A stretch of 8,278 nt of DNA, taken from positions 1-8,278 of the IMG/VR virus record IMGVR_UViG_2778261641_000012; one strand, 5' to 3'. This DNA is from a virus. Taxonomy: Duplodnaviria > Heunggongvirae > Uroviricota > Caudoviricetes. Below, in pieces: positions 4,266 to 8,278 of the stretch (positions are counted from its first letter, which is position 1; every line of letters begins with the position of its first letter). The notes beneath the pieces are model-generated. The model was not told where the DNA came from, ran no database searches, and saw only the letters and a list, made by a program, of their open reading frames with translations. Position numbers and translations under genes: made by a program.

Positions 4266-4747
4266 GACAGCAGCCCTCCCACCGTTTTACTGATATCGCT
4301 TAAGGCAGATGTTGCCATGTCCTGCAGATTATTCAGCTGCGCACTGAGATCACCAAACATATCGGACAGGGATTCATCCACCCGTTTGAGCGACAGGGTG
4401 AACTCAATCCGGCGCGGCATACCGTCGCGGAAAAACTCCGTTTTGGTCTGATTCAGTCCCTCAATCACATACATGCCGTAAATCGTGCCGCTGCCTTCAA
4501 TCAGGGGCCATGCTTTCCCCTGCTCTGCCATCTGCTCCAGTGCCAGCAATGACAGCCTGCCGCCTGTTATCTCCGGCATAAGAACACCAGAAAGCGTCAG
4601 CATGTCGTTGTCCGGTCCCAGAAACTGCGTGGATGGACGACGATTTACCCGACTGTTAGCCGCATGTCGCCAGCTGCGCTGATACTGCAGTTCCTGATAC
4701 GGCACGGTGCGCAGCATAAACACGTACAATCCCAGCACCATCATCAT
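4262..4747 (-). CDS. U: Phage tail protein U (P2 gpU-like), 161 aa
   Basis: Size (P2 gpU is about 160 aa as I recall) and position between T and D fit. It is translationally coupled at both ends by ATGA overlaps (4744-4747 and 4262-4265). Confidence 0.85.
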   Translation of the reverse strand: MMMVLGLYVFMLRTVPYQELQYQRSWRHAANSRVNRRPSTQFLGPDNDMLTLSGVLMPEITGGRLSLLALEQMAEQGKAWPLIEGSGTIYGMYVIEGLNQTKTEFFRDGMPRRIEFTLSLKRVDESLSDMFGDLSAQLNNLQDMATSALSDISKTVGGLLS

Positions 4748-5868
4748 GCGTCGTATCCCCCCTGATCGCTGTAGTTACTCCTGGCTTTTGCCTTCAGCCT
4801 GCGTTCACGTTCATCAAGCTGGCGGGCCACCTCCCGCGCAATATCCTGCGCACTTTGTCCTGGCTGCGTCTGAATGATGATCTGCGTCGGTGCCTCAATC
4901 CGTTGAACGGGCGGCACAGTGGCTGCACGACTCACCATCGCTTCGCCGCCTTTCGCGGGAAGTGCCAAAGGATGTAACGGTGGAAGCTCTGTAGGCGCGG
5001 CAGCAACGCCCATCATTTCGGCAACAACCGCAGCCAGTGCAGCGGTATTTCTCCGGCTGGTCACGTTTGCCGGGCCGTTGACAATTTCCGGCCCGTTTTC
5101 ACCGACGATGCCAAACTGCCCGCGCGGGATATAGCCGCCGCTGTCATACATCCCCGCAAAGCCATATCCCCATGACGGAAAACCACCCGATGGCATCATC
5201 ACTTTACCGTCTGCATTCACCGTCGCAGGTTGCTGACGCGTCACGCTTTCCGGCAGTTTCGCCTTTGCGGCCTCTTTACTGACAATGCCGAGCTTCTCCA
5301 GCAACCAGGAAACGCCGGATTTCAGTGAGTCCAGCGGATGCATGACCATATTCAGCCCTTCCGCCAGTGCCTCCCCGAATCGCCGCCCCATTGCCGCTGC
5401 ACTCTGCAGTTCGGCAGAGGTCGACTTAACGGGCGTCAGCAGATCAGTAAACCAGCCCCACAGCGCCTGCACTTTGTCGCCAATCCACTGAAACACAGGC
5501 TTAAGTGGTTCGAATGCAGCACTGATGGGACCTGCCGCCGCTTTGAATCCTTCCACCACGCCACCGAGAAATGCGGTGATGGGTTGCCAGTATTTCCAGA
5601 CAACCAGCGCCACGCCCGCCAGTGCAGTAACCACAAGACCTATCGGACTGAGCAGAGCACCTACCAGCGTTGAATCTTCAGTCAGATCGGTAAGCAGCCA
5701 GATTTCTGGTGCGGTTAATAAATGAGGTTGAGCTGGGTTCAGCTTGTTCCGCAGAATCTGCACATTCATGCCTGCACGTTCTGCCAGTTGCACCAGGTTG
5801 TGGCGCAGTGCGAATGCACGACAGGCTTCATCAAAATGTGGATGTTTGGAAACTTGGTAATCAAACAT
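4744..5868 (-). CDS. Chimeric ORF (374 aa from ATG 5868): N-terminal ~70 aa like the HTH domain of a CII-type early regulator (186 CII / Phage_CP76 type), fused in frame to a C-terminal tail tape-measure (gpT-like) fragment. Probable deletion-fusion product.
   Basis: The N-terminus [49 protein letters not shown]...LTEDSTLV matches the CII-like regulator N-terminus as I recall it. The rest is Ala/Gly-rich with a hydrophobic segment, typical of tape-measure proteins, and ends in an ATGA overlap with U exactly as T does in P2. At 374 aa it is far shorter than a full tape measure (about 800 aa in P2 as I recall). The ATG at 5868 has GGAG 9 nt upstream; the track start at 5877 is a TTG inside the SD spacer. 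Confidence 0.65.
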
Positions 5869-5932
5869 GGTTTTCAACTCCGAACTTATCGCAAAATCGA
5901 ACTCAGCGTCTTATTGTGAAAATAGACGTCTA

Positions 5933-6136
5933 TTAAGCAGACAAAGCATCAACAGTCAGAGCAGCCAGGTTAATCATTACCTTTTCACGTTTTTTGTCTT
6001 TACGAAGACGATGACGAGGTAGTCGGCCATCAGCCAACATGTCGTTAATCGTATCAATAGAAAGGCCAGTCAGTTCGCTATAACGTTCGATTGTGACATG
6101 TGGTGTATTCAGAGTAATTGAAATGTTAGGTGTCAT
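5933..6136 (-). CDS. Small HTH DNA-binding protein in the Apl/Cox position (67 aa); putative excisionase and lytic-operon regulator
   Basis: It is divergent from cI and is the first gene of the rightward early operon, directly upstream of the cII-like sequence, as apl is in 186. The motif [24 protein letters not shown] resembles an excisionase/AlpA-type HTH. AGGA lies 10 nt upstream of ATG 6136. The family assignment is positional and motif-based only. Confidence 0.5.
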
Positions 6137-6225
6137 AAGGCAACATTCCTTCTAGATATGGCTTGTGGCGAGCCGTTGTTTGTCGTGATTAGTAGTGAAG
6201 GCTCCAAAAGAACACTTCTGGTTCA

Positions 6226-6254
6226 ACTTTAAGATCGCTTTTGGAATCTGTCAA
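6226..6254 (-). promoter_or_regulatory. Candidate early lytic promoter (pR-like) for the apl-like / cII' operon
   Basis: On the minus strand, a consensus -35 TTGACA (6254-6249), a 17-nt spacer, and -10 TAAAGT (6231-6226). It lies between the cI start and the apl-like start and is embedded in TTTTGGA repeat motifs. Confidence 0.4.
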
Positions 6255-6281
6255 CGAATTTTGGATTTCTTTGGAGGACTT

Positions 6282-6851
6282 GTGGATTTCAATAGCGGCG
6301 GTAAGAAAGCCATAGAACGTTTAGTTGAAGCATATGGGTTCGGTACCCGTCAGGCTCTCTGTGATCATTTAGGTGTTTCTAAGAGCACCATGGCAACGCG
6401 CTATATGCGTGATATTTTTCCAGCAGATTGGGTAATCCAGTGCGCCCTTGAAACGGGCACCTCGCTTAATTGGCTAACAACAGGGCATGGTTCAAAGCAA
6501 GCATCAGCAAATACAAATACTATAGAAGTAGAAAAATATTTATTGTCTGATGGAGCATTGCAGAAAGACGGTTTTTATATTTTTGATAAGGGATTTCTAC
6601 CCTCTACGTTTAAAAAACCTTTTGTCATCACAGATAACAATTCTGAATTTATTTGTGATAAAGAATTTGATGATATACGTGATGGTAAATGGGTAATAAG
6701 TATTGATGGCGAAATAACGATCCGTGACATTACTCGTTTACCCGGTGGAAGAATCTTCGTCGAGGGTGGAAACAGAGCCTTCGAATGCAAGATAGAAGAC
6801 ATTGAAATAATTGGTAAAATTATAAGTTTAACAGTCAAGTATGTTAAATAG
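6282..6851 (+). CDS. cI: 186-type CI immunity repressor (about 190 aa from GTG 6282; the ORF track extends to 6195)
   Basis: It aligns along its whole length with coliphage 186 CI as I recall it: LVEAYGF vs ICEAYGF, CALETGTSLNWLTTGHG vs CALETGANLQWLLTGEG, FDKGFLP vs FDTSFLP, and WVISIDGEITIRDITRLPGGRIFVEGGNRAFECKIEDIEIIGKII vs WLVDIEGAISIRELTKLPGRKLHVAGGKVPFECGIDDIKTLGRVV. GTG 6282 is preceded by GGAGGA (6273-6278), though the spacing is short. The longer ORF from 6195 would overlap the pR-like promoter. Confidence 0.8.
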   Translation: MDFNSGGKKAIERLVEAYGFGTRQALCDHLGVSKSTMATRYMRDIFPADWVIQCALETGTSLNWLTTGHGSKQASANTNTIEVEKYLLSDGALQKDGFYIFDKGFLPSTFKKPFVITDNNSEFICDKEFDDIRDGKWVISIDGEITIRDITRLPGGRIFVEGGNRAFECKIEDIEIIGKIISLTVKYVK

Positions 6852-6866
6852 TACCGGGAGGAAACT

Positions 6867-7058
6867 ATGCTTGGTAAGGTATTTTTTGTGGTTTTGTCAT
6901 GTTCTTTGTTATTAAACCCACTAACTACCTATGCTAGAAATTATCCCTGCTCAGGGAAAAAGGGAGGTGTTTCTCACTGTACCTCAGATGGCAAATTCGT
7001 TTGCAATGATGGAACTATTAGTAAATCCAAAAAAATCTGTACTAAAAACTCACGATAA
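6867..7058 (+). CDS. Hypothetical small exported cysteine-rich basic peptide (63-aa precursor; predicted mature peptide about 40 aa with 4 Cys)
   Basis: A strong RBS GGGAGGA lies 4-5 nt before ATG 6867, which is 16 nt after the cI stop. The N-terminus [23 protein letters not shown] looks like a signal peptide with a possible signal peptidase I site after TYA. The mature part [40 protein letters not shown] has 4 Cys and net charge about +7. The region is AT-rich. I do not recognise a family. Confidence 0.5.
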
Positions 7059-7193
7059 CTTTTGCTTTTATATCTGCGTCTAAAATAAAAATGAGCCGCA
7101 TGTTAACCGCAAAAGTTACATGCTCACATAGCAAAAAGAATAGCCAACTTCATTATGGCTTCAGTGAGATGTATGGTCGTAGGATTTCATACA

Positions 7194-7222
7194 TTGACAC
7201 TGGTTATACATACAGTAAAAAT
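7194..7222 (+). promoter_or_regulatory. Candidate promoter upstream of int
   Basis: Consensus -35 TTGACA (7194-7199), a 16-nt spacer, and an A/T-rich -10 TAAAAA (7216-7221). GGAGGG (7233-7238) lies 8 nt before the int ATG at 7247. Sequence-only prediction. Confidence 0.35.
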
Positions 7223-7246
7223 GCTCTCTACTGGAGGGCATTTTTT

Positions 7247-8278
7247 ATGGCAGTACGAAAACTCACCACAGGGAAATGGCTTTGCGAATGTTACCCCGCC
7301 GGAAGAAGTGGGCGTCGTGTGCGTAAACAATTCGCCACCAAAGGCGAAGCTCTGGCTTTTGAGCGTCACACGATGGAAGAAACCGAATCAAAGCCCTGGC
7401 TGGGCGAATCAGTGGATCGTCGAACCCTGAAAGACGTGGTTGAGCTATGGTTCAAATTACATGGTAAATCTCTGACTGCTGGGCAGCATGTCTATGACAA
7501 ATTGCTGCTGATGGTTGACGCTCTAGGCAATCCTCTTGCAACCAATCTCACCTCTAAAATGTTTGCCCACTATCGAGATAAACGCCTGACAGGTGAGATC
7601 TACTTCAGCGAGAAATGGAAGAAAGGAGCCAGCCCGGTCACCATTAACCTGGAGCAAAGCTATCTAAGTAGTGTTTTTAGCGAACTATCCCGCCTGGGCG
7701 AATGGTCGTATCCAAACCCACTGGAGAACATGCGAAAATTCACCATCGCAGAAAAAGAGATGGCATGGCTTACCCATGAGCAGATTGTTGAATTGCTGGC
7801 TGATTGCAAACGTCAGGACCCAATTCTGGCACTGGTAGTTAAGATATGCTTAAGCACAGGCGCACGTTGGCGTGAAGCCGTAAATCTTACCCGCTCACAG
7901 GTGACCAAATACCGAATTACCTTTGTAAGAACGAAGGGGAAGAAAAACAGAAGCATCCCTATCAGTAAAGAGCTTTACGAAGAGATCATGGCGCTTGATG
8001 GGTTCAATTTCTTTACAGACTGCTATTTTCAATTTTTATCCGTGATGGAAAAAACGTCTATCGTGCTCCCTCGCGGTCAACTGACACACGTTCTGCGCCA
8101 TACGTTTGCGGCGCACTTCATGATGTCGGGTGGAAATATCCTGGCCTTACAAAAAATTCTCGGGCATCACGATATAAAAATGACTATGCGTTACGCACAT
8201 CTGGCACCGGATCACCTGGAAACTGCATTACGGTTTAATCCGCTGGCAACACTACCAACATCAATAGCAAGTTTTTGA
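7247..8278 (+). CDS. int: Tyrosine site-specific integrase, P2 Int family (343 aa from ATG 7247; the track ORF from 7091 is an unsupported N-terminal extension)
   Basis: It has the conserved blocks LSTGARWREA, HVLRHTFAAHFMMSGGNILALQKILGH and MRYAHLAP (catalytic Tyr), which align with P2 Int (GARWGEA, LRHSFATHFM, LQRILGH, MVYAHFAP) as I recall it. A good SD precedes 7247. The stop codon is at 8276-8278, so the gene is complete in the window. Confidence 0.9.
   Translation: MAVRKLTTGKWLCECYPAGRSGRRVRKQFATKGEALAFERHTMEETESKPWLGESVDRRTLKDVVELWFKLHGKSLTAGQHVYDKLLLMVDALGNPLATNLTSKMFAHYRDKRLTGEIYFSEKWKKGASPVTINLEQSYLSSVFSELSRLGEWSYPNPLENMRKFTIAEKEMAWLTHEQIVELLADCKRQDPILALVVKICLSTGARWREAVNLTRSQVTKYRITFVRTKGKKNRSIPISKELYEEIMALDGFNFFTDCYFQFLSVMEKTSIVLPRGQLTHVLRHTFAAHFMMSGGNILALQKILGHHDIKMTMRYAHLAPDHLETALRFNPLATLPTSIASF

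What the first reader, a model, noticed from the sequence alone, without database searches (positions are those of the whole stretch)
6867..7058. Small cysteine-rich exported peptide gene inserted between cI and int (candidate moron in the lysogenic operon)
P2 has no gene between its repressor and int. Here a 63-codon ORF with a near-consensus RBS starts 16 nt after the cI stop and lies upstream of int, so it would be co-transcribed with the repressor and expressed in the lysogenic state, the usual situation for lysogenic-conversion genes. The product has a signal-peptide-like N-terminus and a roughly 40-residue mature part with 4 cysteines and about 7 lysines (net charge about +7). That resembles small disulfide-stabilised periplasmic or secreted peptides. 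I cannot place it in a known family from sequence alone. ORFs this small are often missed by automated annotation.
Basis: partly seen in the sequence, partly recalled or inferred. Interest (0 to 1): 0.6.

Follow-up and report, generated by a model that had tools for sequence, protein, structure and literature searches.

The report
Prophage YdcA-family periplasmic mini-protein gene
The small ORF between the prophage repressor and integrase genes is a real, strongly conserved gene for a 40-residue exported, disulfide-rich, basic mini-protein of the already catalogued but uncharacterised YdcA family; it sits where related phages carry anti-phage genes, so it is a known gene with an open, testable function.

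Summary
A 63-codon ORF (6867-7058) with a GGGAGG ribosome-binding site starts 16 nt after the cI stop and 188 nt before int.

It is a real gene. E. coli prophage alleles differ by 8-9 synonymous and 0 nonsynonymous changes over the 34-codon core.

It is not unplaced. It passes the curated cut-off of NCBIfam NF007463 (YdcA family), matches phrog_6000 and Pfam PF27300, and is already annotated in RefSeq.

It has a typical Sec signal peptide (not a lipobox). The mature peptide is 40 aa with four conserved cysteines and net charge +7.

P2, 186 and two 186-like phages have no gene between repressor and int. In about 631 of 5426 complete E. coli genomes, including BL21(DE3), this gene sits directly downstream of one cI type. 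Sibling prophages carry PD-Lambda-1, KAP NTPases or unknown genes in the same slot. Haemophilus phage HP2 has an unannotated homologue there, and Vibrio phage K139 encodes its periplasmic exclusion protein Glo there.

New leads: the domain resembles a lobe of Legionella T4SS protein Dis2, and it is fused to three unrelated families of secreted nucleases.

The function remains unknown. My best inference is a periplasmic polyanion or envelope binder acting in superinfection exclusion.

The parts
6282..6851 (+). 186-type immunity repressor gene cI. First gene of the lysogenic (pL-type) operon; GTG start as annotated in RefSeq.
   Evidence: Pfam Phage_CI_repr 3.3e-31 and Phage_CI_C 4.7e-29. RefSeq CDS WP_001346406.1 at the equivalent position.
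6856..6861 (+). Shine-Dalgarno sequence GGGAGG, 5 nt upstream of the ATG of the small ORF.
   Evidence: Read directly from the sequence.
6867..7058 (+). YdcA-family gene: 63 codons plus stop.
   Evidence: NCBIfam NF007463 at 115.8 bits against a cut-off of 93. phrog_6000 at 1.9e-34. RefSeq 'YdcA family protein' WP_000900883.1. 8-9 synonymous and 0 nonsynonymous changes between prophage alleles.
6867..6935 (+). Codes for the Sec signal peptide (residues 1-23: MLGK, hydrophobic core, TYA). Predicted signal peptidase I cleavage is after Ala23.
   Evidence: Mean Kyte-Doolittle hydropathy of residues 5-19 is 2.2. Position -1 is Ala in 43 of 45 family members and position -3 is S/A/T/V in 44 of 45. 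No lipobox. Identity is 25% in this part against 82% in the core (alignment).
6936..7055 (+). Codes for the mature 40-aa peptide. Four conserved Cys (C46 invariant; C28, C38, C58 in at least 90% of rows of alignment A1, all four invariant in A2) and a nearly invariant His37. Net charge +7.
   Evidence: Alignments A1, A2, A6. AlphaFold2 mean pLDDT 81, beta-hairpin. Composition.
6852..7246 (+). 395-nt segment between the cI stop and the int start. It is absent from 186, MLG42 and SEN8, where cI and int abut or overlap.
   Evidence: The 6852-7186 part matches 631 E. coli genomes, all at 90% identity or more.
7187..7187 (.). Approximate mosaic joint. From here rightwards the sequence is about 95% identical to the int modules of phages 4LV2017 and vB_EcoM-813R9, which carry different repressors and cargo.
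   Evidence: Matches start at query position 1088-1090 of the query 6100-8278.
7217..7245 (+). 13-bp hairpin (AAAAAUGCUCUCU / ACU / GGAGGGCAUUUUU). It covers the int Shine-Dalgarno (GGAGGG, 7233-7238) and ends in a U-run 1 nt before the int ATG. It could attenuate int expression relative to cI and the small gene.
   Evidence: RNA fold of 7050-7250: -56.9 kcal/mol, z = -4.81 against shuffles. Function not tested.
7247..8278 (+). P2-type tyrosine integrase gene int, the last phage gene before the rcdA-side attachment site.
   Evidence: Pfam Int_N 2.4e-32 and Phage_integrase 6.4e-22. phrog_1. RefSeq context.
5933..6136 (-). Cox/Apl-like excisionase-repressor gene, divergent from cI. It marks the lytic-lysogenic switch.
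   Evidence: phrog_575 at 1e-29.

Best explanation
The ORF is a genuine accessory gene of a 186-type P2-like prophage integrated next to rcdA.

Shown:
- It encodes a YdcA-family (NF007463 / PF27300 / phrog_6000) pre-protein under strong purifying selection.
- It sits 16 nt downstream of cI, on the same strand, with its own Shine-Dalgarno and no intervening terminator.
- It is almost always found with this cI type.

Inferred with high confidence (about 0.85):
- It is transcribed with cI from the lysogenic promoter, so it is made in lysogens.
- It is exported by Sec and cleaved after Ala23.
- Its four conserved cysteines are oxidised in the periplasm to two disulfides. The result is a 4.3-kDa, +7-charged beta-hairpin mini-protein with the fold of one lobe of Legionella Dis2.

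Inferred with moderate confidence (about 0.45): the conserved Lys/Ser-rich surface binds a polyanionic or outer-membrane-proximal partner, either DNA or an envelope component. The reasons are that the same domain is fused to three unrelated secreted nuclease families, and that in Dis2 it docks onto outer-membrane lipoproteins.

Most likely biological role (about 0.3): a soluble periplasmic superinfection-exclusion factor that protects the lysogen against incoming phage or other foreign DNA. This would be analogous to Glo of Vibrio phage K139, which is encoded in the same cI-int slot, and consistent with sibling prophages carrying anti-phage genes at that position.

The overall confidence of 0.45 refers to the chain up to and including 'periplasmic binder of a polyanionic or envelope partner'. 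Identity and export are near-certain; the exclusion role is the least certain step.
For: Family and coding status:
- NF007463 scores 115.8 bits against a cut-off of 93. phrog_6000 scores 1.9e-34. Homologues carry PF27300.
- Selection: 8-9 synonymous against 0 nonsynonymous changes, and dN/dS about 0.1-0.2.

Export:
- Positions -1 and -3 follow the signal peptidase rule, the leader is hypervariable and the core is 82% identical.

Operon:
- There is a 15-nt gap and no + strand terminator between cI and the ORF.
- In HP2 the homologue overlaps the cI stop codon.
- In 186 and K139 the annotated pL/PL lysogenic operon runs from cI on through int.

Linkage and frequency:
- The insert matches 631 genomes and the cI matches 638, out of 5426. 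The insert is better conserved than cI.
- The module is retained in two independently degraded prophages: this window and BL21(DE3).

Slot contents in siblings:
- PD-Lambda-1 at E 3e-120, KAP NTPases, unknown genes.
- The literature describes a cI-int defence hotspot in K139-like phages (PMC9122126) and an int-to-primase hotspot in P2-like phages (PMC13586616).

Precedent:
- K139 glo is annotated as 'periplasmic protein; involved in phage exclusion' and lies between cI and int (PMC3952083).

Fold:
- AlphaFold2 pLDDT 81.
- Dis2 (7muc_AN) is the top hit by profile (E 5e-4; 0.013 with mature columns only) and, independently, by Foldseek (probability 0.84, TM 0.62, 38% identity).
- A Dis2 homologue carries PF27300. 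Pairwise BLASTP gives 4e-5 and 2e-4 for the two lobes.

Fusions:
- SNase, Endonuclease_NS and PLD-like nucleases.

Mobility:
- The family also occurs in Moraxella, Acinetobacter and Pseudomonas phages and on plasmids.
Against: - There is no experimental evidence for any function.
- PADLOC has no model that matches.
- Glo is unrelated in sequence (hhalign probability 1.7%).
- Many family members are chromosomal and not on mobile elements. Examples are core E. coli ydcA next to cybB, and copies next to PepSY_TM, DUF2946 or Prc. This argues that the basic activity is a general envelope function, not a dedicated anti-phage one.
- The only phenotype reported for chromosomal ydcA is sensitivity to 3-hydroxypropionate, together with acid induction (PMC7642389).
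- In strain CI5 the gene stays next to cI while a KAP NTPase occupies the variable position. So the gene may belong to the immunity module and not to the swappable defence cargo.
- No promoter was mapped here and no signal-peptide predictor was available.
Confidence: 0.45

Rival explanations
1. Host-fitness lysogenic conversion. The peptide is a periplasmic envelope or stress-tolerance factor, for example for acid or organic-acid stress, doing the same job as chromosomal YdcA. The prophage simply supplies an extra, constitutively expressed copy that benefits the host rather than excluding competitors.
For: The prophage protein and core E. coli YdcA share the whole conserved core (53% identity overall; NF007462 at 4e-19). 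Deleting ydcA made E. coli W sensitive to 300 mM 3-hydroxypropionate, and ydcA is reported to be acid-induced under YdcI control (PMC7642389). Many family members sit in ordinary chromosomal contexts.
Against: The 3-HP phenotype is a single report with no mechanism. It does not explain why phages of four unrelated types and small mobilizable plasmids carry the gene. It also does not explain the nuclease fusions.
Confidence: 0.25
2. A nucleic-acid handling accessory rather than a defence factor. The domain binds extracellular or periplasmic DNA or RNA, or tethers nucleases to the envelope. The stand-alone prophage version would modulate DNA uptake, eDNA or biofilm, or nuclease activity.
For: The domain is fused directly after the signal peptide to SNase (P0128, L063), Endonuclease_NS (P0182, P0187, P0206) and a PLD-like nuclease (P0200). 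SNase, Exo_endo_phos and RNase_T genes occur among its neighbours. In HP2 the next gene in the slot is a secreted OB-fold (tRNA_anti-like) protein. Lysines K32 and K55 are invariant. Hosts include naturally competent Haemophilus, Moraxella, Acinetobacter and Neisseria.
Against: Only 6 of about 20 long family members examined are nuclease fusions. Most members are stand-alone. An N-terminal module on a secreted enzyme can equally be an anchor or a pro-domain. No nucleic-acid-binding fold was recognised.
Confidence: 0.12
3. A periplasmic metal-binding peptide. The four cysteines and the conserved histidine would coordinate Cu or Zn instead of forming disulfides, giving a metal-buffering or chaperone role.
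For: Four conserved Cys and a nearly invariant His37. Some chromosomal homologues lie next to PepSY_TM and DUF2946 genes (3 loci each); the idea that these neighbours are metal-related comes from my own recollection and was not tested.
Against: Cysteines of Sec-exported proteins are normally oxidised in the periplasm (general knowledge). The related Dis2 lobes show clear disulfide density in cryo-EM (PMC8486379). His37 is replaced by R, A, S, N or Y in several members. Phage and plasmid contexts show no metal genes.
Confidence: 0.06
4. A conjugation or type IV secretion accessory or entry-exclusion factor, as the UniRef name 'Conjugal transfer protein' and the Dis2 similarity suggest.
For: The UniRef name of the identical protein. 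The Dis2 (Dot/Icm outer-membrane cap) similarity. A homologue lies next to a small TraD gene on a 3.9-kb MOBQ plasmid.
Against: There are no T4SS genes near the window gene or in most loci. Plasmid hits are a mix of conjugative, mobilizable and non-mobilizable types. Dis2 is dispensable for T4SS structure and function (PMC12716638). The UniRef label has no traceable evidence behind it.
Confidence: 0.05
5. A secreted cationic antimicrobial peptide (bacteriocin-like) used by lysogens against competitors.
For: It is small, cationic (+7) and disulfide-stabilised, like defensin-type peptides.
Against: A Sec leader delivers only to the periplasm. There is no export, immunity or processing gene nearby. 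The family includes internal domains of larger periplasmic or secreted proteins and tandem repeats, which is not a bacteriocin architecture.
Confidence: 0.03
6. A lipoprotein anchored through Cys12 of the leader (LSC).
For: A cysteine lies within the hydrophobic leader of the window protein.
Against: There is no lipobox match. 32 of 45 family members have no Cys in the leader. The conserved A-x-A site follows it.
Confidence: 0.01

Closest known systems
E. coli K-12 YdcA (b1419) and the YdcA family (NCBIfam PRK10040 models NF007462/NF007463, Pfam PF27300, phrog_6000)
   Same: Same family. Signal peptide followed by the core PCSGxKGG[VI]xHC...[17 protein letters not shown] with four conserved cysteines, 55-65 aa in total. 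The window protein passes the curated cut-off of NF007463.
   Different: It is the prophage-borne subtype (NF007463), not the chromosomal ydcA-cybB orthologue. NF007462 scores 68.5 bits against a cut-off of 118. Identity to K-12 YdcA is about 53%. No member has a defined function. For the chromosomal gene there is only a 3-HP sensitivity phenotype and reported acid induction.
Unannotated ORF of Haemophilus phages HP2 and S2 (HP2 record 2487-2669, complement)
   Same: A 60-aa homologue (52% identity, same core) in the same position. It lies immediately after cI, overlapping its stop codon by one base, and upstream of int in the pL operon of a P2-related phage.
   Different: It is followed by a second secreted cargo gene (orf1, OB-fold tRNA_anti-like). 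It is not annotated in the GenBank records.
Glo of Vibrio cholerae phage K139
   Same: A soluble periplasmic protein encoded between cI and int in the PL lysogenic operon of a P2-related phage. It is annotated and cited as involved in phage exclusion. It is the best functional and positional analogue.
   Different: No sequence relationship (hhalign probability 1.7%). Glo is 137 aa and not cysteine-rich or basic in the same way. I could not read the primary paper (Nesper et al. 1999).
Dis2 (Lpg0823), outer-membrane-cap component of the Legionella Dot/Icm T4SS (PDB 7MUC/7MUD)
   Same: Each of its two disulfide-pinned lobes carries the motif CC-x3-GG[VI]-x6-G-x-[LV]VCN[DN]G-x-x-S. It is the top hit for both the profile search and Foldseek. 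A Dis2 homologue carries PF27300. Like YdcA, it is a small Sec-exported periplasmic protein.
   Different: Two lobes with five disulfides, not basic, and part of a T4SS where it contacts DotK, DotC and DotD. The window protein is one lobe with four cysteines and has no T4SS context. Statistical support is moderate only (hhalign 62%).
Other cargo in the cI-int slot of rcdA-site P2-like prophages (PD-Lambda-1, KAP NTPases)
   Same: Same slot, same strand and same int module at 88-99% identity. Known and candidate anti-phage genes expressed from prophages.
   Different: These are large cytoplasmic ATPase or nuclease-type proteins unrelated to YdcA. In strain CI5 a KAP NTPase is added downstream of the YdcA gene rather than replacing it.
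Classical P2 accessory genes old, tin and Z/fun
   Same: Non-essential P2-group prophage genes that exclude other phages (established knowledge; the P2 hotspots are discussed in PMC9122126 and PMC13586616).
   Different: They lie at other genome positions (between gpA and gpQ, and within the tail genes) and encode cytoplasmic proteins. There is no sequence relationship.

Membership tests
YdcA family (NCBIfam NF007463 / PRK10040.1-2) | Whole-protein score above the curated cut-off of the equivalog model | tested here: met
   115.8 bits against a cut-off of 93, E 5.3e-34, covering model positions 1-58 of 58.
YdcA family (Pfam PF27300 / phrog_6000) | Match to the family profile | tested here: met
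   phrog_6000 at 1.9e-34 over 56 of 56 positions. PF27300 is precomputed on P0001 (98% identical) and on 58 of the 64 hits. PF27300 is not in the local Pfam copy, so it was not scored directly.
YdcA family | Conserved core with four cysteines: PCSGxKGG[VI]xHC-x4-6-F[VI]C[NK]DG-x2-S-x-SK-x2-C | tested here: met
   All motif positions are present. C28, C38, C46 and C58 are invariant in alignment A2 (45 sequences); in A1 (31 sequences) C46 is invariant and the other three are conserved in at least 90% of rows.
YdcA family | N-terminal Sec signal peptide cleaved by signal peptidase I (periplasmic protein) | tested here: met
   n-region with Lys4, 15-residue hydrophobic core (mean Kyte-Doolittle 2.2), T-Y-A cleavage site. 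The -1/-3 rule holds in 43 and 44 of 45 members. No lipobox. This is a rule-based check; SignalP was not available and export was not tested experimentally.
Moron (Hendrix-type autonomous accessory gene in a phage genome) | Present or absent between otherwise syntenic phage genomes | tested here: met
   Absent from the cI-int junction of 186, MLG42 and SEN8, and from P2's C-int junction. Replaced by other cargo in 813R9, 4LV2017, CFT073, E2348/69, MIN9 and others.
Moron (Hendrix-type autonomous accessory gene in a phage genome) | Own promoter and terminator flanking the gene | tested here: not met
   Only 15 nt separate it from cI. No + strand promoter-like site between cI and the ORF, and no canonical + strand terminator after it. 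Expression must depend on the repressor transcript.
Moron (Hendrix-type autonomous accessory gene in a phage genome) | Base composition different from neighbouring phage genes | tested here: inconclusive
   The ORF and spacer have GC 0.32-0.41 against 0.45-0.54 in int. The C-terminal half of cI is equally low (0.30-0.37).
Moron / lysogenic-conversion gene | Expressed from the prophage in the lysogenic state | not testable with these tools
   Inferred from position in the pL-type operon. No transcript or proteome data were examined.
Dis2 (Lpg0823) family of Dot/Icm T4SS components | Two homologous lobes pinned by five disulfides | tested here: not met
   The window protein has a single lobe with four cysteines.
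Dis2 (Lpg0823) family of Dot/Icm T4SS components | Domain-level homology to a Dis2 lobe | tested here: inconclusive
   [not shown]
Dis2 (Lpg0823) family of Dot/Icm T4SS components | Part of, or encoded with, a type IVB secretion system | tested here: not met
   No T4SS genes in the window or in the intact prophage.
Known anti-phage defence or superinfection-exclusion proteins (PADLOC-DB; K139 Glo) | Sequence match to a known defence or exclusion family | tested here: not met
   No PADLOC hit at E <= 0.01. Glo comparison gives hhalign probability 1.7%.
Known anti-phage defence or superinfection-exclusion proteins | Reduces infection by other phages when expressed | not testable with these tools
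   Needs plating-efficiency assays.
Bacterial lipoproteins | Lipobox [LVI][ASTVI][GAS]C at the end of the signal peptide | tested here: not met
   No match. The leader Cys is absent in 32 of 45 homologues.

The most novel reading that the evidence does not exclude
The YdcA/PF27300 domain is a previously unrecognised, disulfide-stapled, cationic periplasmic module that binds DNA or an outer-membrane-proximal partner. It would be homologous to the lobes of the supposedly Legionella-specific T4SS protein Dis2. Its stand-alone form, carried by P2-like, HP2-like, Moraxella and Acinetobacter phages and by small plasmids, would be a new class of soluble periplasmic entry-exclusion factor that intercepts incoming phage, plasmid or transforming DNA. 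It would be present in about 12% of complete E. coli genomes, including BL21(DE3).
Probability: 0.2. Interest if true: 0.7.

Novelty: already known. Interest (0 to 1): 0.4.

Why it matters
The gene itself is catalogued, so finding it is not a discovery. What is open is its function, and that now looks directly testable. It is a 40-residue exported mini-protein, probably made constitutively in lysogens, and present in roughly one in nine complete E. coli genomes, including the workhorse BL21(DE3). It sits where related prophages carry anti-phage systems and where Vibrio phage K139 encodes a periplasmic exclusion protein.

First, the domain recurs at the N-terminus of three unrelated secreted nuclease families. 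Second, it appears to be the single-lobe relative of Dis2, a structurally solved T4SS component described as having no homologues. Either lead would give a function to a widespread orphan family and might explain what Dis2 does.

Tried and rejected
- The local Pfam-A copy gave no significant hit, because PF27300 is newer than that copy. The family was placed through NCBIfam, PHROGs and precomputed Pfam labels instead.
- PADLOC gave no hit.
It was redone.
- The lipoprotein reading was rejected: no lipobox, and the leader Cys is not conserved.
- Homology to K139 Glo was rejected.
- The weak NCBIfam hit to the lpg1681 family (E 0.11) and the Pfam GULLO2 hit (E 0.075) were treated as noise.
- Other PDB profile hits (hepsin, VLDL receptor, lysozyme, a proteinase inhibitor) were treated as cysteine-pattern noise.
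- Neighbourhood analysis of 79 species-level loci gave no single conserved partner outside phages. Contexts are heterogeneous.
- Most 'ydcA' literature hits concern unrelated genes of the same name in Bacillus, the gonococcal island and F-like plasmids.
- Nesper et al. 1999 (the Glo paper) is not held.
- The exact tape-measure::cII deletion junction of this window was not found in any complete E. coli genome.
- I could not inspect model coordinates, so the disulfide pairing was not determined.
Full report
**Observation**

The cI stop codon is at 6849-6851, so the ATG is 16 nt downstream. GGGAGG at 6856-6861 lies 5 nt before the ATG. int starts at 7247, which leaves 188 nt of non-coding DNA.

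The product has a leader, [23 protein letters not shown], and a 40-residue remainder with 4 Cys, 7 Lys, 2 Arg and 2 Asp. Net charge is +7, mass 4.3 kDa, pI 9.7.

**It is a real gene**

- The identical protein is in a cluster of 355 sequences seen on at least 1000 contigs.
- Over the 34-codon core, one group of E. coli prophage alleles differs from the window by 8-9 synonymous and 0 nonsynonymous substitutions (dS 0.52-0.62, dN 0).
- Across 84 distinct core sequences from Alpha-, Beta- and Gammaproteobacteria, median dN/dS is about 0.1-0.2.
- The overlapping 50-codon ORF in another frame (6931..7083) needs no separate explanation.

**Identity**

- It scores 115.8 bits on NCBIfam NF007463 (PRK10040.1-2) against a curated cut-off of 93.
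- It scores lower on NF007462, the model for chromosomal E. coli YdcA (68.5 bits against 118).
- It matches phrog_6000 end to end (1.9e-34).
- Its homologues carry the precomputed Pfam domain PF27300.
- RefSeq annotates it as 'YdcA family protein' (WP_000900883.1) or 'hypothetical protein'.
- An exhaustive profile search finds 449 representatives at 50% identity with E <= 1e-3, and 266 with E <= 1e-10.

K-12 YdcA is described as a 57-aa predicted periplasmic protein of unknown function. The only phenotype I found is 3-hydroxypropionate sensitivity of a deletion in E. coli W, together with reported acid induction under YdcI control (PMC7642389).

**Export signals**

- Across 45 family members the leader is hypervariable (25% mean identity) and the core is 82% identical.
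- The residue before the predicted cleavage site is Ala in 43 of 45 members. Position -3 is S, A, T or V in 44 of 45.
- There is no lipobox. The leader cysteine of the window protein is absent in 32 of 45 homologues.

This is the pattern of a Sec signal peptide cleaved by signal peptidase I. The check is rule-based; no dedicated predictor or experiment was available. The four mature cysteines are invariant in alignment A2 and conserved in at least 90% of rows in A1. His37, Lys32 and Lys55 are invariant or nearly so.

**Context**

The window holds host genes (grxA, ybjM, ybjL), then a P2-like prophage read leftwards: ogr, D, U and a tape-measure remnant fused to the N-terminus of cII. Then come cox/apl, and rightwards cI, the small gene and int. 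In the intact relative the prophage ends after int, next to rcdA.

The canonical arrangement has nothing between repressor and int:

| Phage | Repressor-int junction |
|---|---|
| P2 | 115 nt, no gene |
| 186 | 1-nt overlap |
| Yersinia phage MLG42 | 1 nt |
| Salmonella phage SEN8 | 3 nt |

The window instead has 395 nt there (6852-7246).

Phages with a 95%-identical int (Klebsiella 4LV2017, Escherichia vB_EcoM-813R9) match only from about 7187 rightwards. So cI, the small gene and about 130 nt downstream form one module, and int forms another.

In complete E. coli genomes the cI type occurs in 638 of 5426 and the insert in 631, with 641 places each. The insert is better conserved (every match at least 90% identical) than the repressor (481 genomes at 80-90%). 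The gene is therefore a nearly constant companion of this immunity type and not a sporadic insertion.

It is also kept in degraded prophages: this window and BL21(DE3), where cII and the replication gene are pseudogenes. Other carriers include E. coli B, HS, APEC O78 and ATCC 8739.

**Transcription**

Fifteen nucleotides separate cI from the ORF. No + strand promoter-like or terminator-like site lies between them or right after the ORF. In HP2 the homologue overlaps the cI stop codon by one base. In 186 and K139 the annotated pL/PL operon runs through cI and int. Co-transcription with the repressor, and hence expression in lysogens, is a strong inference, but it is not shown here.

The spacer RNA folds much better than shuffled controls (z = -4.8). 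It contains a 13-bp hairpin (7217-7245) that covers the int Shine-Dalgarno and ends in a U-run. This might lower int expression relative to the two upstream genes.

**The slot is a cargo position**

Prophages at the same rcdA site with 88-99% identical int carry the following between cI and int, always on the same strand:

| Genome or phage | Cargo between cI and int |
|---|---|
| IR53017, phage 813R9 | DUF4041 protein = PD-Lambda-1 (PADLOC E 3e-120) |
| E2348/69 | second CI-like gene plus a KAP NTPase |
| CI5 | YdcA-like gene plus a KAP NTPase |
| MIN9 | three genes, one with an ASCH domain |
| CFT073, KBN10P04869, 4LV2017 | single unknown genes of 314-349 aa |

In CI5 the YdcA gene stays next to cI and the NTPase is added downstream.

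Rousset et al. [quoted passage not shown] A 2026 survey lists an integrase-to-primase hotspot holding 8% of the defence systems of P2-like prophages (PMC13586616). So the hotspot idea is already published.

The most relevant precedent is glo of K139. It lies between cI and int in the PL operon, is annotated 'periplasmic protein; involved in phage exclusion', and is cited as a soluble periplasmic exclusion protein (PMC3952083). Glo is not related in sequence to YdcA.

**Distribution**

- The cI, YdcA, int order recurs in Escherichia, Yersinia (3 species) and Pasteurellaceae, including phages HP2 and S2, where the ORF is not annotated.
- Elsewhere the gene sits in the late region of Moraxella Mcat and Acinetobacter phages.
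- It also occurs on Acinetobacter and Rhizobium plasmids, including a 3.9-kb MOBQ plasmid where it follows a small TraD gene.
- It is found in ordinary chromosomal contexts, such as next to cybB in E. coli.

It is thus a widely shared envelope mini-protein that mobile elements of several kinds have picked up.

**Structure and the Dis2 link**

The family profile and, independently, Foldseek both rank the same solved chain first: 7muc_AN.
- hmmsearch gives E 5e-4, or 0.013 when only mature-domain columns are used.
- Foldseek gives probability 0.84, query-normalised TM-score 0.62 and 38% identity over 39 columns, but E = 0.42.

That chain is Dis2 (Lpg0823) of the Legionella Dot/Icm T4SS outer-membrane cap. 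[quoted passage not shown] It contacts DotK, DotC and DotD, is dispensable for assembly, and is regarded as Legionella-specific (PMC12716638).

Further evidence:
- A Dis2 homologue retrieved here carries PF27300.
- Both lobes align to the YdcA core by BLASTP (4e-5 and 2e-4 for a single comparison).
- hhalign gives only 62% probability.

I rate a shared domain as probable but not proven.

**Fusions**

Among the longer family members, the domain directly follows the signal peptide and precedes one of three unrelated nuclease families:
- SNase: P0128 and L063.
- Endonuclease_NS: P0182, P0187 and P0206.
- PLD-like nuclease: P0200.

Other members have two or three tandem copies (P0081, P0084, P0087). 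Betaproteobacterial long forms add a second Cys module that weakly resembles the PBCV basic adaptor domain.

Recurrent fusion to unrelated secreted nucleases, together with the invariant lysines, points to binding of a polyanion (DNA or an envelope polymer) or to anchoring at the envelope.

**Mechanism and rivals**

I consider identity, export, processing and lysogenic expression well supported. I rate binding of a polyanionic or outer-membrane-proximal partner at about 0.45, and a superinfection-exclusion role at about 0.3.

The main rival is a host-fitness envelope or stress function like that suggested for chromosomal ydcA (0.25). After that come a nucleic-acid handling accessory role (0.12), metal binding (0.06), a conjugation or T4SS role (0.05) and an antimicrobial peptide (0.03). 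The lipoprotein reading is refuted.

**Novelty**

The gene, its family and the cargo nature of the slot are all already on record, so I class the finding as already known. The function is not known. These make the function directly testable in BL21(DE3).

Noticed in passing
window 4744-5877 (- strand); junction near 5667/5668: One ORF fuses the N-terminal half of the phage CII regulator (Pfam Phage_CP76 positions 1-77 of 146) to the C-terminal part of the tape-measure gene. The prophage has therefore lost everything between cII and the tail genes. No complete E. coli genome has this exact junction; three have similar but different deletions.
   Followed up: partly
window 7217-7245 (+ strand), within spacer 7059-7246: A 13-bp hairpin with an A-run and a U-run covers the int Shine-Dalgarno and ends 1 nt before the int ATG. 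The whole spacer folds with z = -4.8. It could act as an attenuator or as an RBS-sequestering element for int. It lies in the int module shared with phages 4LV2017 and 813R9.
   Followed up: partly
L169 804-2480; L177 1822-3498; L173 1464-2795; L175 1010-3476; L178 1278-3482; L174 2502-3473; L176 2527-3471; L170 813-1862: The cI-int slot of rcdA-site P2-like prophages is a variable cargo position. It holds PD-Lambda-1, KAP NTPases, an ASCH-domain gene set or several unknown genes of 314-349 aa. The unknowns are candidates for new defence genes.
   Followed up: partly
[not shown]
   Followed up: yes
P0128, P0182, P0187, P0200, P0206; L063 3956-4708: The YdcA domain is fused after the signal peptide to three unrelated secreted nuclease families: SNase, Endonuclease_NS and PLD-like. 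Other members have 2-3 tandem copies (P0081, P0084, P0087). One is fused to a VasL-like T6SS domain (P0121).
   Followed up: partly
PDB 7MUC/7MUD chain AN; P0079, P0080: Legionella Dis2 (Lpg0823) is published as species-specific, without homologues or structural neighbours. It appears to consist of two YdcA-like lobes, and a Dis2 homologue already carries PF27300.
   Followed up: partly
L031, L033, L037, L046, L049-L051, L054, L060, L062, L067, L070, L078, L081 (long forms): Long forms, mostly from Betaproteobacteria with a few from Alpha- and Gammaproteobacteria, add a linker and a second module, CxCRSGxxCTGPRGGxYCxxDSGxKSYxRR. It weakly resembles the PBCV basic adaptor domain (E 0.006, below the cut-off). 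Providencia versions carry long Lys-rich repeats.
   Followed up: no
window 6819-6847 (- strand) and 6944-6957: A near-consensus promoter-like site (TTAACA, 17 nt, TATAAT; 11 of 12) points antisense into the 3' end of cI. A 14-nt inverted repeat (TCCCTGCTCAGGGA) lies inside the small ORF. Promoter-like sites are not enriched over shuffles (3 against 4.4 expected), but terminator-like sites are (6 against 0.9).
   Followed up: no
window 6195 versus 6282: The longest cI ORF starts at GTG 6195. RefSeq starts cI at GTG 6282, behind a GGAGGA site, giving 189 aa. The Pfam repressor domain begins after the RefSeq start.
   Followed up: no
L003 (JAEWTL010000113.1, 'Bacillota bacterium' MAG): A 3-kb contig binned as Bacillota carries a cI-YdcA-int stretch whose YdcA protein is identical to the E. 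coli one. This is probably contamination or mis-binning.
   Followed up: no
L167 728-904 (pApiMCR53a, 3.9 kb) and NZ_CP016902.1 (4.1 kb): Tiny mobilizable Acinetobacter plasmids carry a YdcA homologue as one of about five genes, next to a small TraD gene. UniRef names the identical E. coli prophage protein 'Conjugal transfer protein' with no visible basis.
   Followed up: partly
L001 10238-10507; L174 4650-4919; L178 4651-4920: In several intact relatives an 89-aa hypothetical gene (WP_001032044.1) lies between int and the prophage end. This is the same place as Orf69 in the lysogenic operon of phage 186. It lies beyond the end of this window.
   Followed up: no
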